A stretch of 64,000 nucleotides of DNA from Ruditapes philippinarum (Eukaryota). Of the stretch, positions 1 to 63,400 are shown one piece after another; position 1 is the first letter of the stretch, and each line of letters starts with the position of its first letter. Where the stretch lies: assembly GCF_026571515.1 (NCBI RefSeq), contig NW_026859959.1, forward strand, positions 248,001-312,000. The letters run 5' to 3'. Made by a program: the position numbers.

Positions 1-3000
1 AAAGAAATAAATAAATTCACCATTTTATCCTTCATTAGAAAACGTTTATGAGACGCGATAATTAGACTTTCATTAGGAATAAGAATAACCAGAGAGTCAC
101 ATTTGTTTATAATTTATAATTATTTTAAACCTTTTGTGCAGTATAAAAGATTGAAGGTTTATATATTGACAAAAATATAAGTCATATAAACTGCTGTGTA
201 CATGATTAGAATGTAACAAGATAAGATACGAAGAAATACATACGGCATAGTACTTATATTAAAGCAAAGCAATGGATTATTTTATCGGTTCACTATCCTT
301 TCATCCAAATTTAACATACAAACAAGAAAAAGGATATTGTTGGTTTATGTCTCAATCTCAATCACCTACTTAAACTGCAGTCCTATTACTCTTTAAACAA
401 CCATCGTATTACATTTGAAAAAAAGGACTGTATAGTAATTATCAATATCAATATTCTCAAACATCAAATTTAAGTTATAATATATCTTTACACCAAGTAA
501 TATATTTCAAAGTAGATTTAAGGCTTGGAAAAAATGTTCTCTTGAATGTTTGTTTGTTTGTTTTGTTTTTCTTTATTTGCTTATTTAAAAATGATAATTG
601 CAGTTACTGTACGCAATGTAAGAAATCGAAATCCGACGGCCCCATTTTAAAGCATTAATGATGCATTTATATTATGTGAGACTTATAACCTGTTACAATT
701 TGTAATTTCTGCGATATAATAAATTTTTTTTGTAATAAATGTTGAACAAACAGATTTATAGATTCCTGTGCAAGATCAAGTCATCTTTTTACTTTTAGAT
801 ATACAGGTATTAAACAGGTATTTCCTTATAATTATTATTTTGAAAGATCATTGATTGAAGATTACAAAATTGTATAACCTTTGATATTTTTTTTTGAATT
901 GATGTCTCAAGTATTTAAACTTTTATTTATCGCTATACATGGTCGTTATATTCGTCATATCTCATATTACCAATCATCATATTACCAATTATCATATTAC
1001 CAATTATCATATTACCAATTATCATATATTACCAATTATCATATTACCAATTATCATATTACCAATTCATCATATTACCAATTATCATATTACCAATTAT
1101 CATATTACCAATCATCATATTACCAAATCATATTATCATATTACCAATCATCATATATTACCAATTATCATATTACCAATCATTCAATGTTTGTTCTTCT
1201 TCACTGCCAAATATACAGTGTGCTTCTATATTCTTTGGAATATATTTATTATATTATTATATTTTATTATATTATATTTATAATATTAAAATATTTATTC
1301 ATTGATTAAATGTTTATATTGCTTGATTTTAGAGTACATATATTTTATATTAATATAGCAATACGCGACACATACACACTATAAAGACTGAAGTGTATTG
1401 TTTATCAAGAATTATTTGAATACAAATACACCTGTGATTTGCCTAAATAAAATAATTGGAGGCTTCGGAATTTTCACATCCGTTTTCAAGTTCGTTTACT
1501 AAAATCATTTGAAACCCAAGCTAGTTAATAAAACACACACACATACATTGAATCAAAGATATTTGTCTCTCACCGTTGATCCAGAAATTGGTGAGACTAG
1601 TAGTCGGTCATTTGAGGAGACATATGTAATTACTGGTTAGTTATCCAGGAAAAGCGGCTAAGCAGATCAATCGCCGAAATGTGACCAAACAACTGTGTTA
1701 TAAAACTGGTAGAAAATCTGACAAAGAAAAACCAATCATCTTCAATTTACCTTGATAATTTGGAAATTGGGTAAAATCCTGTAAACGTTTAAGCAATAAG
1801 AATTCCAGAAAATGTGTTGTAAAGGTCATTTTCAACACGAATTAAATCGTAAACACGCGAGGTACCCTGAGTAGCATATGCTGCCTCGCCTTGTTGTAAG
1901 GGAGTCAACATATCTACAGTTTGACACGAGAGGTGATGCGGGTAGAAACGCGCCCAACTATATAAATTCCCGTCTCTGCGAATTGCCAAGTCAATATCAT
2001 ATCCTACAAGACAGAGCTGTAATACGAAATAGTAAGTTCCAGTAACTGGAGCAATAAAAACACCCGTGTAGTTATCATAGGCATTGCCGTTGTTTTCAGG
2101 TATGTTTGTAAATATGAATTTTGCACCACCTTCTTGTTTTGTCATCGAAGGATCTTTAGATCGAAAGAAAACGCCTTTGGATTTCCACGAACCTAATGTA
2201 AAAGAAATATAGTAAATATTAGGACGCAGTTTTATATTGTATACATTTTTACATGACATATTAATGAACTTGGATAGCAAAAAAAAAAAAAAAAAAAACA
2301 ACAAAAAACAACACACATATGGAAATTCCACTGAGTTAAAATACCACATGTCTTCATATGACTCCAGCACTGAAAACGTTCAGGAAGCGGACTCTAGGAT
2401 GTTTCAAATAAGCATCAAGCTTTCTACATAACCGAGTTTTAAAATATATATGTTGCTTAAACCGGATCTAATTATAAGATAGTTGCTGTTAATCGTCTAA
2501 AATATTATTGGAATAAACTTTGAAGAATATTTTTAATCTCAACACATAATAGTAAAACCTACCATGATTAATGTCTCCGTTCAGCACTTTATATTTATGA
2601 ACTTTTAGTCTAATATCCGTTCTGTCATCTTTTAGTTTATGAATCATTCCCCCAACCTCTCTCTCTGCTTCTTTCAAAACTTTATTTTCCTTTGGTGGAA
2701 TTTTTCTCTTTAGTCCAAAGTAATGTTGCAGCCAGTCGAATTCTTTACTTTTCAAATCTTGGAGATTTTTTTCCACTTTATTTCTCACTTTGATCATTTC
2801 TTGCTTCACTGTCTTTGCTAAATATTCAAGTTGTGTCACTGTGCCTATAAAATCCTCCTCTTGATTCGCAAAGGAACAGTCACAGACACATAATACAAGC
2901 AAAAGTGTCACGCAATACATCATTTTTAATTTGTGGACGGGCACATTGTCTAAACAAATTCATATATTTTGACTAGTAAATATTCAGATCTAAAAACGTC

Positions 3001-60400: not shown

Positions 60401-63400
60401 ATATTTTTTTATTATTTGAACCTTTAAAATTAAAAATGATGTTTTGTATGATAACTTTGCTTGTTTTATGTGTCTGTGACTATTCCGTTCCAAATCAAGA
60501 GGGGGATTTGTTAGACACAGAAACACAACTTGAACATTTAGCAAAGAAAGTGAAGCAGGAAATGATTAAAATGAGAAATAAAGTGGATAAAAGTCTCAAA
60601 TATTTGAAAAATAAAGAATTTGACTGGCTGCAATATTACTTTGGACTAAAGAGAAGAATTCCAAAGGAAAATAAAGTTTTGAAAGAAGCAGAGAGAAAGG
60701 TTGGGGAAATGATTCATAAACTGAAAGATTACAGAACGGATATTAGACTAAAAGTTCATAAATATTAAGTGCTGATCGGAGACACCAGTCATGGTAGGTT
60801 TTGTTTAATGACATCTTGAAGCTGATAAAATTCTTCATAAGTTTATGCATTTAAGAATATGTCCCTTGTGCTATCTATGCACATCATTTTGATTCATGTC
60901 AATTAGCAGTGCCAATCTAGTTACCAGGTCTAGTAACTTAAAATAGTTTAAATACATTTATTTTAGCTCGTTCATGATAAAAGCTTGAAGCTTATTTGAA
61001 ACACCGTAGAGTGCGCTGCCTGAAACTAACTAGTGTGGAGGATTTATGAAAACACGAAGTCGTGATCATAGAAGACCTCGAACCTATGAACCCTTGGTTA
61101 AGAGGACGACACTTTTACCACCAAATCATCGTTCACTAGCTTTACTTAACTCTTTACTATTATCATACTATGAAGAGACTAGCTCCGTTGCATTTTCATG
61201 TTTTCTTCTTCTTATATTCAATTCAATAAATGTATCATGTAGAAAATATATCAAACCTCATTTTTTAAATATAAAAAAACCACTTTTGTTCGTAAATTTC
61301 GGATAGTTTCTTAATATTTAATCTGACTTTTTAACATCAGGTTCATCGAAATCCAAAGACGTTTCCTTTCGATCTAAAGATCCTTTAAAGACATATCTGG
61401 AAGGTGTTTTACAAACACGCATGTGAACAACGGCAATACGTATGATAACATCACTGGGGTTTTAATTGCTCCAGTTACCGGAACTTACTATTTCGTATTA
61501 CAGCTATGTCTTGGAGGAAATTATGTAGACTTGTCAATTCGCAAAGGCGATTATTTATATAGCTGGGCACGTTTCTTCCCATATCATTTGTCGTGTCAGA
61601 CAGTAGATATGTTGACTCCGTTACAAAAAAGGTGATGAAGTGTATGCTTCCAAGACATCCTCTTGGGATTACAATATAATGCATGTCGGCAATGACCTTT
61701 ACAACACTTTCTCTGGAGTACTTATTGCTTGAACTGTTTATTCTAAAGTTCCAAATTATCATTATGTCATTCCGGGATACAAGGACTTTCCTCACGTTGT
61801 ACGTTGTATTACACAGCCAATTTACCGGATTATACTAATACAAGCTAACTTGTATTAATTATACATGCATACAAATTTAAATGATATCGTAGTATGTATT
61901 TCAATCTTAAAGTTAGGGTTTTCGTGCCGTTTGATATAATACAGTTAATTTGACCTTATTATCAAAAGTATATTTGATTAAACAATAAAAACAGTTGAAC
62001 CAGAATATGACTTTGACATTTTTAATTCATTTGGGATACCTATATTGTCATCTATAGGATGATAATGGTGAACACTTCAAAGCTATTAACAGTTTTAATC
62101 AGGCAAATCATATAGTTATTTTTTACGTATCTATTAAAAAAATTCGTTATTCCTGCTAGAAAGATAATTCATGTTTGTGTTTCATAAAAGGTTTTAAGTT
62201 TAATTATTTAAAAGGGAAAAGGTAAGCAAAGAGATAAATATCATTCAGTCGTTAATACGTTCATGCCTCACTGGTTTCAAGCACAAGAATATGCATTTTC
62301 AGTTGTTGTTGTAATTATATGGATTATCGGTGACGACCAAAACTGTGACACAATTAATTTCTTTTCTTACCCTATCCCTACTTAATAATCGAACTTTTAA
62401 CTTTTGATAAAAAACAAACCTTTATGTTTGAGAATTAAATGCATATAATTACAATGAAATGTTTTTTAATATTAGTTTTGAAATTCCACATTTTAACTCT
62501 TCTCTAGATCTCATGCAAATAGATGAGCACAAATATTATCTTTTATTATATACTCATAAATGAAATATTGAGAAATATTGATGAAATAAAATGCGTATTT
62601 TCATTTTCTGTATTTTCACTGTAAAAATTTATTTTTCACTGCAGTGAAACATATTTTCCGTATTTTCACTGGTGTCTTGCCGGACTACTTTCTTTTAAAT
62701 TCTGCCAGTACACAAAATTTAAGGGAAAGTCTTTTAAATTTTAATGTCAAAAAAGAGAAAAATGTATATAATAAATAGATGTATATAATAAATAGAAAAT
62801 TCACGTTTTTTCTATAAATACATGATTTATTTTCATCTTGTGGCATGAAAATTACCATATTTCACTCGTGGCTACCGCCACTCATGTAATATTTATTTTC
62901 ATACCACTCGATGAAAATAAATCATGTATTTATAGAAAAAACTTGAATATCCTCTATGAGATACATCATTTTTATTTTACCCATCAACAATAATATTTGA
63001 AGTTAGCAGGAGTGGATTAAAGGGGCAATATGCCCTGTAACACCGCATGGCCAATGTGAACTTATTTTGACTTTCATCTGTTTCATCACTTTGGGGTCAA
63101 ACGCACTTTGGTGTCAAAGTTTGACACCAAAATGCGTTATACAGGTTCATATGCATATCTTGACATCAGACAAAAGTAACATACTTTGGGGTCATAAAAA
63201 TTGAATAAATAAGATCGAATTATAGTGATATTTTTAAATAATATCTTGTACTTGATGCCAATCGTAAAACGAAGTAGGCTAAATGTATTACGTGTGCTAA
63301 CAATAGCAGACGATTGATTGTTTTAATTTGTTGTATCTAATGGTTGCAATTTATTATGGTTATAATATTCAATTAATTGTCTCATAGGATATTATCTTAA

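What the first reader, a model, noticed from the sequence alone, without database searches (positions are those of the whole stretch)
1789..61732. Four-subfamily coiled-coil/C1q gene cluster under rapid birth and death
Seen: 11 copies or fragments in the order A1(-) B1psi C-fragment(-) A2 B2 A3psi D1 D2psi D3psi Cpsi(-) A4psi; only 4 are intact. All complete copies share a two-exon signal/coil + gC1q design. Known: bivalves have greatly expanded C1qDC pattern-recognition lectins, and gC1q domains trimerise. Inference: the co-duplicated B-C-A modules may encode chains of a heterotrimer (as with clustered vertebrate C1qA/B/C), giving a combinatorial recognition system.
[Added by the scan's program, not by the reader: the finding's places include an assembly gap (unread letters, written N; its length is only estimated) at 46674 to 46985, 48525 to 48685. 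Whether the letters on both sides are continuous or in frame is not known: test that first.]
Basis: partly seen in the sequence, partly recalled or inferred. Interest (0 to 1): 0.72.

Follow-up and report, generated by a model that had tools for sequence, protein, structure and literature searches.

The report
Clam coiled-coil C1q gene cluster
A 60-kb stretch of Manila clam DNA holds eleven tandem copies of secreted coiled-coil C1q immune-lectin genes, most of them broken; this is an ordinary example of how bivalves multiply and discard such genes, not evidence for a new multi-chain receptor.

Summary
The window is Ruditapes philippinarum DNA: A2 and A3 exon translations are letter-for-letter inside RefSeq LOC132758412 and LOC132758413. 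A1, A2, B2 and D1 are intact under canonical splicing. All four are two-exon genes with a phase-1 GT-AG intron: exon 1 encodes a hydrophobic leader plus a heptad-periodic helical stalk, and exon 2 encodes the gC1q domain. The other seven carry stops, frameshifts, a lost donor or deletions. B1's exon 2 is replaced by a LINE with a nested LTR element. Both N gaps are intergenic, and no frame crosses them.

This is the published "sC1q-like type II" C1qDC class, known to expand by tandem duplication in bivalves (PMC6835236). The birth-and-death reading is supported.

The heterotrimer reading has no support. C has no intact copy here, no B-C-A module keeps more than one canonically intact gene, and co-duplication follows from adjacency alone. 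D-type genes also sit on other contigs.

Two nuances: RefSeq models A3 as coding through a cryptic donor, and D3 has only one nonsense change.

Spliced full-length proteins were not searched or folded.

The parts
1789..2923 (-). A1, intact. Exon 1 is 2923..2563 (leader plus helical stalk), exon 2 is 2192..1789 (gC1q, stop included). Deduced 254 aa.
   Evidence: ORFs; splice sites and phase 1; no stop or frameshift against A2; Pfam C1q 4.4e-12.
4588..4735 (+). Possible vestige of a C exon-1 region, mirror-placed next to the inverted A1. Weak.
   Evidence: nhmmer with a profile of the two C 5' regions, E = 1e-4; single-sequence nhmmer E = 0.0025; blastn 63 bp at 73%.
5619..6059 (+). B1 pseudogene, exon 1 only. 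Stop at codon 41; indels of -2, +1 and +3. Homology to B2 runs 5128-6345.
6346..18181 (.). 11.8-kb segment standing where B1's intron 3' part and exon 2 should be. It holds LINE-like RT ORFs (6917-9543, minus strand) and a nested LTR/Gypsy element (9519-17102). The LTRs are 1245 and 1240 bp with TG..CA ends and an ATAT target duplication; 10 mismatches in 1240 aligned bases.
   Evidence: B2 23942-24504 has no counterpart in B1; homology resumes at 18182, one base past the end of B2's stop codon (24500-24502), so aligned to B2 24504. Pfam RVT_1, RNase H, integrase zinc finger, gag. LTR ends.
19083..19524 (-). C fragment: the 5' region of a C gene plus a scrap of its 3' flank. The gC1q part is deleted.
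   Evidence: 19178-19493 matches 58774-59092 (80%) and 19121-19164 matches 58005-58048. No gC1q hit.
20244..21785 (+). A2, intact. Exon 1 is 20244-20601, exon 2 is 21382-21785. Deduced 253 aa. The intron carries a 237-bp A2-only insert (21011-21247) with a tRNA-like T-arm box.
   Evidence: Exon translations identical to RefSeq LOC132758412 (P0182), including the ISH-G-SSK junction. Insert.
23238..24502 (+). B2, intact. Exon 1 is 23238-23676, exon 2 is 24090-24502. Deduced 283 aa.
   Evidence: Pfam C1q 4.7e-12. Collinear with the 292-aa relative P0058: exon 1 42% and exon 2 54% identity.
27068..28362 (+). A3, damaged. Exon 1 is 27068-27424 with a 1-nt deletion and the canonical donor changed from GT to AT. 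Exon 2 (27959-28362) is an intact ORF. RefSeq LOC132758413 (192 aa) uses a cryptic donor after 27242.
31884..39842 (+). D1, intact. Exon 1 is 31884-32199, exon 2 is 39418-39842. Deduced 246 aa. The intron is 7.2 kb.
   Evidence: Exon 1 aligns to residues 1-105 and exon 2 to 107-245 of the 246-aa R. philippinarum 'HIP-like' protein P0157.
43108..45337 (+). D2 pseudogene. Exon 1 (43108-43420) is open, with an in-frame -3. Exon 2 (44912-45337) has two 1-nt deletions.
52372..55365 (+). D3. Exon 1 (52372-52687) is open. Exon 2 (54938-55365) has a single premature TAG at 55264-55266 (TGG in D1), which would remove about the last 33 residues.
58005..59092 (-). C pseudogene. The gC1q remnant (58083-58507) has two in-frame stops and a frameshift. 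A degraded stalk-like region lies upstream. Nearest intact relative found is P0003 (293 aa), 47% identical in gC1q.
60436..61732 (+). A4 pseudogene. Exon 1 (60436-60793) has a stop at codon 111. Exon 2 (61341-61732) has a 13-nt deletion and a 1-nt insertion.
46674..48685 (.). Two assembly gaps (46674-46985 and 48525-48685) with a 1.5-kb island between them. They lie in intergenic DNA between D2 and D3.

Best explanation
This is a tandem cluster of secreted 'sC1q-like type II' C1qDC genes (leader, coiled-coil stalk, C-terminal gC1q head) in the Manila clam, evolving by birth and death.

Shown:
- Every complete gene has two exons split by a phase-1 intron just upstream of the gC1q domain.
- A roughly 6-kb B-C-A unit was duplicated in tandem. 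A C-A piece occurs a third time. A1 is an inverted A copy. D forms its own three-copy array.
- Seven of the eleven copies are disabled by point lesions, deletions or retrotransposon insertion.

Inferred from what is known of gC1q proteins and bivalve C1qDCs:
- Each intact gene (A1, A2, B2, D1) makes a secreted chain.
- Its gC1q heads trimerise, by default with themselves, and its helical stalk bundles the chains.
- The product is a soluble lectin-like pattern-recognition molecule. Diversity comes from paralogue turnover, not from obligate mixing of chains.
For: Species. A2 and A3 exon translations are exact substrings of R. philippinarum RefSeq proteins.

gC1q head. Pfam C1q is above its cutoff for 9 of the 9 gC1q-bearing ORFs sent. 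There are PDB sequence hits to adiponectin, C1q and C1QL. The AF2 model of the A2 head has pLDDT 86.8 and matches gC1q crystal structures at TM 0.74-0.86.

Stalk. Heptad periodicity covers 40-55 residues of the mature exon 1. It was reached by 0-3 of 500 shuffles for each of A1, A2, B2 and D1. AF2 predicts two long helices, pLDDT 72.9.

Gene models. GT-AG phase-1 introns sit at the same place in A, B and D. The A2 junction equals that of P0182. The D1 exons tile the 246-aa protein P0157.

Duplication units come from self-BLAST.

Constraint. dN/dS is 0.2-0.5 at dS 0.07-0.41, so the copies were constrained for most of their divergence and broke late. The LTR pair is 0.8% diverged while B1/B2 dS is 0.07, so that insertion is younger than the duplication.

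Literature. In C. virginica, 55% of C1qDC genes are type II, two-exon paralogues of 249-251 aa in tandem arrays (passages of PMC6835236). The C1qDC expansion in R. philippinarum is described in passages of PMC5499747.
Against: - Expression, secretion and oligomeric state were not tested. Signal peptides are inferred only from hydrophobic N-termini of about 16-19 residues; no predictor was run.
- No RefSeq protein matching A1 or D1 appeared in the two word-limited searches, and B2 was never searched. 'Intact' therefore means an open frame with good splice sites, not a proven gene.
- 'Rapid' turnover cannot be dated. A dS of 0.07-0.41 is not very young.
- A3 may still be coding through the cryptic donor, and D3 has one lesion only, so the count of dead copies could be 5 rather than 7.
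- Adjacency across the gaps rests on scaffolding.
Confidence: 0.8

Rival explanations
1. A, B and C (perhaps also D) are chains of one heterotrimeric recognition molecule, kept together and duplicated together like vertebrate C1QA/B/C, giving combinatorial recognition.
For: - B, C and A are duplicated as a unit.
- C and A lie head to head, with about 0.75-1.4 kb between their 5' ends in two modules, so they could share a regulatory region.
- On a gC1q tree, A groups with B2 and the B/C-like relatives in a 12-tip clade with support 92. This is FastTree, with sampling biased by the queries.
- gC1q domains are known to form both homo- and heterotrimers (passage of PMC10672478).
Against: - There is no intact C in the window.
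- No module keeps more than one canonically intact member. The intact set is 2 A, 1 B, 0 C and 1 D.
- Adjacency alone explains co-duplication.
- Mature exon-1 lengths differ (about 100, 127 and 89 residues). Only D has a cysteine in the mature stalk, inside a conserved CSxFHYEE motif.
- D-type RefSeq relatives lie on contigs of five other sizes, while A-type lie on one contig.
- The invertebrate C1qDC review does not contain the words 'heterotrimer', 'homotrimer' or 'heteromer' (its one hyphenated mention of hetero-trimeric C1q domains concerns solved vertebrate structures), and says most studied proteins were obtained as recombinant proteins.
Confidence: 0.07
2. The 'pseudogenes', or some of the 'copies', are artefacts. 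Either the lesions are sequencing or assembly errors, or divergent haplotypes were laid out side by side by scaffolding.
For: - Two gaps separate D3-Cpsi-A4psi from the rest.
- Bivalve genomes are reported to be rich in hemizygous regions that include C1qDC genes (passages of bioRxiv 10.1101/2020.09.15.298695).
- D3 has a single substitution, and one A4 indel is in an A run.
Against: - Six of the seven damaged copies carry two or more independent lesions, including substitutions to stop, a 13-nt deletion, a splice-site change and an 11.8-kb retroelement block.
- Paralogues differ by 6-33% in non-coding DNA, and dS is 0.07-0.41. I take that to be far above allelic divergence, but I did not measure allelic divergence.
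- Units 1 and 2, and D1-D2, are contiguous without any gap.
- The RefSeq model of A3 is built around the same frameshift. This is not independent evidence if it comes from the same assembly.
Confidence: 0.08
3. Some damaged copies are still in use. A3 would make a short-stalk 192-aa secreted C1qDC through the cryptic donor after 27242. D3 would make a C-terminally truncated protein or be a segregating null allele.
For: - The RefSeq model P0183 equals A3 exon 1 residues 1-59 followed by the intact A3 exon 2.
- The cryptic site reads AAAA|GTAAAG and is in phase 1.
- A2-A3 dN/dS is 0.21, and the A3 exon 2 ORF is intact.
- D3 has only one lesion.
Against: - I could not see whether the RefSeq model has transcript support.
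- The same GTAAAG exists in A1 and A2, where the junction seen in P0182 shows that the downstream donor is used for A2.
- Loss of about 60 stalk residues, or of the last beta strands, would probably impair assembly. This is inference.
Confidence: 0.25

Closest known systems
sC1q-like type II C1qDC genes of bivalves (Gerdol et al. 2019, PMC6835236; passages read)
   Same: Secreted protein with a coiled-coil tail and one C-terminal C1q domain. Two-exon genes with conserved splice sites. Size about 250 aa. Tandem arrays of diverging paralogues.
   Different: The A subfamily here has no relative above 41% identity outside its own clade among 1.84 billion cluster representatives. This cluster is mostly pseudogenes, a word that does not occur in that paper's main text (0 occurrences).
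Vertebrate complement C1q A, B and C chains (clustered C1QA/C1QC/C1QB genes; abstract of PMC11653359 in the listing; structures 1pk6 and 2jg8)
   Same: gC1q jelly-roll head (TM 0.75-0.86 to C1q chains). Several paralogous chain genes lie side by side.
   Different: The stalk here is an alpha-helical heptad region, not collagen Gly-X-Y. The clam cluster does not keep one intact gene of each type. Heterotrimer assembly is not shown.
R. philippinarum and Mercenaria 'heavy metal-binding protein HIP-like' RefSeq proteins (P0157, P0161, P0174; names as given by the source)
   Same: The D subfamily matches in length (246 aa). D1 exon 1 is 83% and exon 2 is 76% identical to P0157. They share the N-terminal CSxFHYEE motif.
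   Different: These are paralogues on other contigs, not the same genes. The 'HIP' name is an automatic transfer. That HIP is a Mytilus hemolymph C1q-domain protein is my recollection and comes from no call.
Adiponectin, CTRP and C1QL homotrimers (4dou, 6u66, 4qpy, 4f3j)
   Same: Best sequence and fold matches of the A2 and D1 heads. The PDB entry titles describe them as trimers, and I take them to be homotrimers of one chain type. That is the default assembly assumed here.
   Different: Vertebrate proteins with collagen stalks and signalling or metabolic roles. Identity is only 20-28%.

Membership tests
C1q/TNF superfamily, gC1q domain (Pfam PF00386) | Sequence match to the C1q domain profile above the curated cutoff | tested here: met
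   All 9 gC1q-bearing ORFs sent scored 45.8-57.2 bits against a cutoff of 23.7: A1, A2, B2, A3, D1, D2 and D3. The Cpsi pieces match a local profile at E = 3.5e-9 and 2e-5.
C1q/TNF superfamily, gC1q domain (Pfam PF00386) | Jelly-roll beta-sandwich fold | tested here: met
   The AF2 model of A2 exon 2 has pLDDT 86.8 and nine strands. Foldseek gives TM 0.74-0.86 to C1QL, adiponectin, collagen VIII/X NC1 and C1q chains. Only A2 was modelled.
C1q/TNF superfamily, gC1q domain (Pfam PF00386) | Trimeric assembly of the heads | not tested
   No job was run on the gC1q heads. Trimerisation is inferred from the solved relatives.
sC1q-like type II C1qDC (signal peptide + coiled coil + C1q; scheme quoted in PMC6835236) | N-terminal signal peptide | tested here: inconclusive
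   Hydrophobic N-termini of about 16-19 residues, followed by polar or acidic residues, are seen in A1, A2, B2 and D1. No signal-peptide predictor was available.
sC1q-like type II C1qDC (signal peptide + coiled coil + C1q; scheme quoted in PMC6835236) | Coiled-coil region between the leader and the C1q domain | tested here: met
   My own crude heptad test covers 40-55 residues, reached by 0-3 of 500 shuffles in each of the 4 proteins. AF2 gives helices 2-68 and 80-113 for A2 exon 1. COILS, the program used in the paper, was not run.
sC1q-like type II C1qDC (signal peptide + coiled coil + C1q; scheme quoted in PMC6835236) | A single C-terminal C1q domain and a two-exon gene | tested here: met
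   One gC1q exon per gene, ending 1-3 residues before the stop. Phase-1 GT-AG intron in A, B and D.
Vertebrate-type heterotrimeric C1q (A/B/C chains) | Collagen-like Gly-X-Y stalk | tested here: not met
   The exon 1 translations contain no Gly-X-Y repeats. They are helical and heptad-periodic.
Vertebrate-type heterotrimeric C1q (A/B/C chains) | One intact gene for each of three chain types kept together | tested here: not met
   C has 0 intact copies. No B-C-A module has more than one canonically intact gene.
Vertebrate-type heterotrimeric C1q (A/B/C chains) | Chains assemble as a heterotrimer | not testable with these tools
Prediction cannot separate homo- from hetero-assembly of paralogues without several matched jobs on full-length chains.

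The most novel reading that the evidence does not exclude
The head-to-head C/A pair and the neighbouring B gene are an ancestral co-regulated unit whose products mix into hetero-oligomers through the heads or stalks. The present haplotype would then be a decayed version of a combinatorial recognition locus that is intact in other individuals or related clams. That would be a coiled-coil analogue of the vertebrate C1q A/B/C arrangement, and it would vary by presence/absence.
Probability: 0.06. Interest if true: 0.65.

Novelty: new member of a known kind. Interest (0 to 1): 0.2.

Why it matters
The locus is a clean, fully dissected example of C1qDC birth and death in the species reported to have one of the largest C1qDC expansions. 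It gives exact exon models, lesions and duplication units, and shows a retroelement replacing an exon.

It is useful for correcting annotation. The RefSeq A2 model lacks the leader that the DNA encodes. A3 is modelled through a cryptic donor. No RefSeq protein for A1 or D1 turned up.

It does not open a new mechanism. The heterotrimer idea would be interesting, but the locus itself argues against an obligate form of it.

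Tried and rejected
- Complex prediction of three copies of the A2 stalk (exon 1 residues 20-119): no verdict (score 0.00, controls not run). It counts neither for nor against. Searches were queue refusals of the same job, which was re-sent unchanged.
- ESM Atlas search with A2 exon 1: no usable hit.
- The search for homologous proteins with A2 exon 2 against longer proteins: none of 105 candidates scored.
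The sources of P0001-P0150 therefore stay unknown, and I did not try to trace them.
- Rfam at gathering threshold and ARAGORN on the whole window: 0 hits each.
- A search for a B1 exon 2 in 6200-7000 and 17000-19300 by sensitive blastn and by translation: none.
- A search for a C copy between B2 and A3 (25300-27000): none.
- I considered and rejected that the paralogues are alleles (divergence too high) and that a gene spans a gap (none does).

Left out on instruction: the exons were never joined, so no search, fold or exact look-up was made with a spliced full-length protein. dN/dS totals over both exons are sums of per-exon counts.

Unchecked:
- Genome contigs holds only bacteria and archaea, so synteny in other clams could not be examined.
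- Paper supplements are closed. The gene lists of PMC6835236 and PMC5499747 might already catalogue these loci.

Full report
**Gaps and origin.** The window is 64,000 bases at 31% G+C, with N runs at 46674-46985 and 48525-48685. Both lie in the spacer between D2 (last exon ends at 45337) and D3 (first exon starts at 52372). Homology with the DNA downstream of D1 and D3 stops at 46664, 10 bp before gap 1. Neither the 1.5-kb island between the gaps nor the DNA after gap 2 resembles any C1q unit. No gene or frame crosses a gap, so continuity in frame is not an issue. What the gaps leave open is a hidden further copy and the true adjacency of D3-Cpsi-A4psi to the rest. The organism is Ruditapes philippinarum. 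The in-frame translations of A2 exon 2, of the A2 exon 1 tail and of A3 exon 2 are exact substrings of RefSeq LOC132758412 (P0182) and LOC132758413 (P0183), both on a 387,292-bp contig.

**The observation.** tblastn with the translated exons and a six-frame hmmsearch with a local gC1q profile find nine gC1q exons and no more: A1(-), A2, B2, A3, D1, D2, D3, Cpsi(-) and A4. DNA self-comparison adds B1 (exon 1 only, 5128-6345 matching 22759-23942 at 92%) and a C fragment (19178-19493 matching 58774-59092 at 80%). A possible twelfth scrap, similar to the C 5' region, lies at about 4588-4735 next to the inverted A1 (nhmmer E = 1e-4).

**Gene models.** In A, B and D, exon 1 runs from an ATG through a hydrophobic leader and a long polar region to a GT donor in phase 1. 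Exon 2 starts after a pyrimidine-rich AG, 5-8 residues before the first conserved gC1q strand, and runs to the stop. Deduced lengths are A1 254, A2 253, B2 283 and D1 246 aa. The A2 junction is the one in P0182. D1 exon 1 aligns to residues 1-105 and exon 2 to 107-245 of a 246-aa R. philippinarum protein, P0157. No search, fold or exact look-up was made with a spliced protein.

**Domains.**
- Exon 2 is a gC1q domain. Pfam C1q scores 46-57 bits against a cutoff of 23.7 for all nine gC1q ORFs sent. There are PDB sequence hits to adiponectin, C1q and C1QL. An AF2 model of the A2 head (pLDDT 86.8) superposes on gC1q crystal structures at TM 0.74-0.86.
- Exon 1 has no Pfam family. It shows heptad periodicity over 40-55 residues, reached by 0-3 of 500 shuffles in each of A1, A2, B2 and D1. 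It is predicted as two long helices with a break at a conserved GLKRRIPK stretch.
- This is the 'sC1q-like type II' architecture of the bivalve literature (passages of PMC6835236; passages of PMC10672478).

**Lesions**.
- B1: AAA>TAA at codon 41, plus indels of -2, +1 and +3.
- A3: a 1-nt deletion in exon 1, and the canonical donor GT changed to AT. Exon 2 is intact.
- A4: a stop at codon 111, then -13 and +1 in exon 2.
- D2: two 1-nt deletions in exon 2.
- D3: one TGG>TAG, about 33 codons before the normal stop.
- Cpsi: two stops and a frameshift in the head, and a degraded stalk.
- C fragment: the head is deleted.

B1's intron 3' part and exon 2 (the equivalent of B2 23942-24504) are replaced by 11.8 kb. 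This block holds LINE-like reverse-transcriptase ORFs on the minus strand and, nested in them, an LTR/Gypsy element. The element has 1245/1240-bp LTRs, TG..CA ends, an ATAT target duplication and 10 mismatches in 1240 aligned bases.

Two qualifications apply. RefSeq models A3 as a 192-aa protein using a cryptic phase-1 donor (AAAA|GTAAAG, after 27242) that bypasses the frameshift. D3 has only one lesion. 'Only 4 intact' is right for canonical splicing, but the number of truly dead copies may be five to seven.

**History.**
- Units: unit 1 is B1...C fragment...A2 (5128-22411) and is followed directly by unit 2, B2...A3 (22759-28469). Without the retroelements each is about 6 kb. C is absent from unit 2. 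A C-A piece recurs at 58005-62370. A1 is an inverted A copy.
- Divergence: dS is 0.07 for B1-B2, 0.14-0.17 among A2, A3 and A4, 0.30 for A1 against the others, and 0.29-0.41 among D1-D3. dN/dS is 0.2-0.5. The copies therefore evolved under constraint for most of their divergence and broke late.
- B 5' half: it is more alike (92%) than the rest of the same unit (84-88%), which hints at later exchange.
- Tree: on a FastTree of 181 gC1q stretches (7 window pieces plus 174 of the 185 stored proteins; 11 lacked a near-complete domain), A forms an 8-tip clade (support 100). B2 groups with P0058, P0003 and P0031 (support 96). A plus that group form a 12-tip clade (support 92). D sits in a separate 27-tip clade with R. 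philippinarum and Mercenaria 'HIP-like' proteins (support 89). The deeper node is unresolved (support 10). Sampling is biased by my two queries.
- Rarity of A: outside its own clade, A2's head has nothing above 41% identity among the listed hits from 1.84 billion representatives.
- D N-terminus: the CSxFHYEE motif occurs in 23 of those 150 representatives, so D belongs to a large old class.

**Mechanism.** Shown: the architecture, the fold of the head, the helical heptad stalk, the duplications and the decay. Inferred from solved gC1q trimers and from the bivalve literature: each intact gene gives a secreted chain that trimerises through the head, is bundled by the stalk and acts as a soluble lectin-like recognition protein.

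**The heterotrimer inference.** It gains nothing from the sequence and loses some ground.
- C has no intact copy here.
- No module keeps more than one canonically intact gene.
- The intact set is 2 A, 1 B, 0 C and 1 D.
- Stalk lengths differ (about 100, 127 and 89 mature residues), as do cysteine patterns.
- D-type RefSeq relatives lie on contigs of five other sizes, while A-type ones lie on one contig.
- A segmental duplication copies neighbours whether or not they work together.

Points in its favour are the head-to-head C/A arrangement and the relatedness of A to B2 and the B/C-like relatives. My one complex job (the A2 stalk in three copies) gave no verdict and is not evidence either way.

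**Comparison and novelty.** The closest known system is the tandemly duplicated two-exon type II C1qDC genes of the eastern oyster (PMC6835236). The C1qDC expansion in this clam is in print (PMC5499747), and so is C1qDC presence/absence variation in bivalves (bioRxiv 10.1101/2020.09.15.298695). For all three I read passages only. The word 'pseudogene' does not occur in the main text of PMC6835236. My searches for C1qDC with 'heterotrimer', and for this species with C1q, pseudogene and tandem, listed no title on this locus or on invertebrate C1qDC heterotrimers. Supplements were closed and may list these genes. I rate this a new member of a known kind, of low interest.

Noticed in passing
window 9519-17102: LTR/Gypsy retrotransposon nested in a LINE. 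LTRs are 1245 and 1240 bp with TG..CA ends, an ATAT target duplication and 10 mismatches in 1240 bases. The gag, zinc knuckle, RT and RNase H are open, but the polyprotein ORF ends within the integrase zinc-binding domain.
   Followed up: partly
window 6346-9518 and 17103-18181: LINE-like element on the minus strand, with RVT_1 split over two ORFs by frameshifts. Its low-coordinate end is near a (TAA)n run at 6417-6478. I did not show that 17103-18181 is its 5' continuation.
   Followed up: partly
window 21011-21247: A 237-bp insert present only in the A2 intron. It carries a GGTTCGAATCC-type tRNA T-arm box and is probably a tRNA-derived SINE. ARAGORN and Rfam find nothing.
   Followed up: partly
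window 32200-39417: The D1 intron is 7.2 kb, against 1.5 kb in D2 and 2.2 kb in D3. Homology to the D2 intron is interrupted by two blocks of about 2.8-2.9 kb (32229-35034 and 35801-38732). A short repeat inside it recurs in the D2 intron and inverted at 62572-62941.
   Followed up: no
window 31935-31958 (D1 exon 1) and stored proteins: A conserved cysteine motif CSxFHYEE sits just after the leader. It is present in D1-D3 and in 30 of the 185 stored C1q proteins, including 23 of the 150 cluster representatives fetched with an A-type query. It marks a large old class of coiled-coil C1qDCs, and the cysteine may link chains.
   Followed up: partly
window 20244-20369: The RefSeq model of A2 (P0182, 211 aa) starts at internal Met43. 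The DNA has an in-frame ATG with a typical leader 42 codons upstream. The public model probably lacks the signal peptide.
   Followed up: yes
window 5128-6345 vs 22759-23942, compared with 18182-19102 vs 24504-25416: Within one duplicated unit, the B 5' half is 92% identical but the B 3' flank and the A part only 84-88%. B1-B2 dS is 0.07 while A2-A3 dS is 0.17. This suggests later gene conversion or unequal exchange.
   Followed up: partly
window 20451-20474 (A2 exon 1) and equivalents in A1, A3, A4: A conserved GLKRRIPK stretch with a proline breaks the predicted stalk helix at residues 69-79. The dibasic pair could be a hinge or a processing site. This is pure speculation.
   Followed up: no
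window 962-1180; 50356-50717: A 15-bp minisatellite of 13.9 copies lies upstream of the cluster. An imperfect 360-bp palindrome lies in the D2-D3 spacer.
   Followed up: no
stored proteins P0001 and P0151: Unnamed database ORFs are 96-98% identical to the A1 head and 96% identical to the D1 head, but not identical. This fits allelic or very recent paralogous variants of these genes. Their sources were not traced.
   Followed up: no
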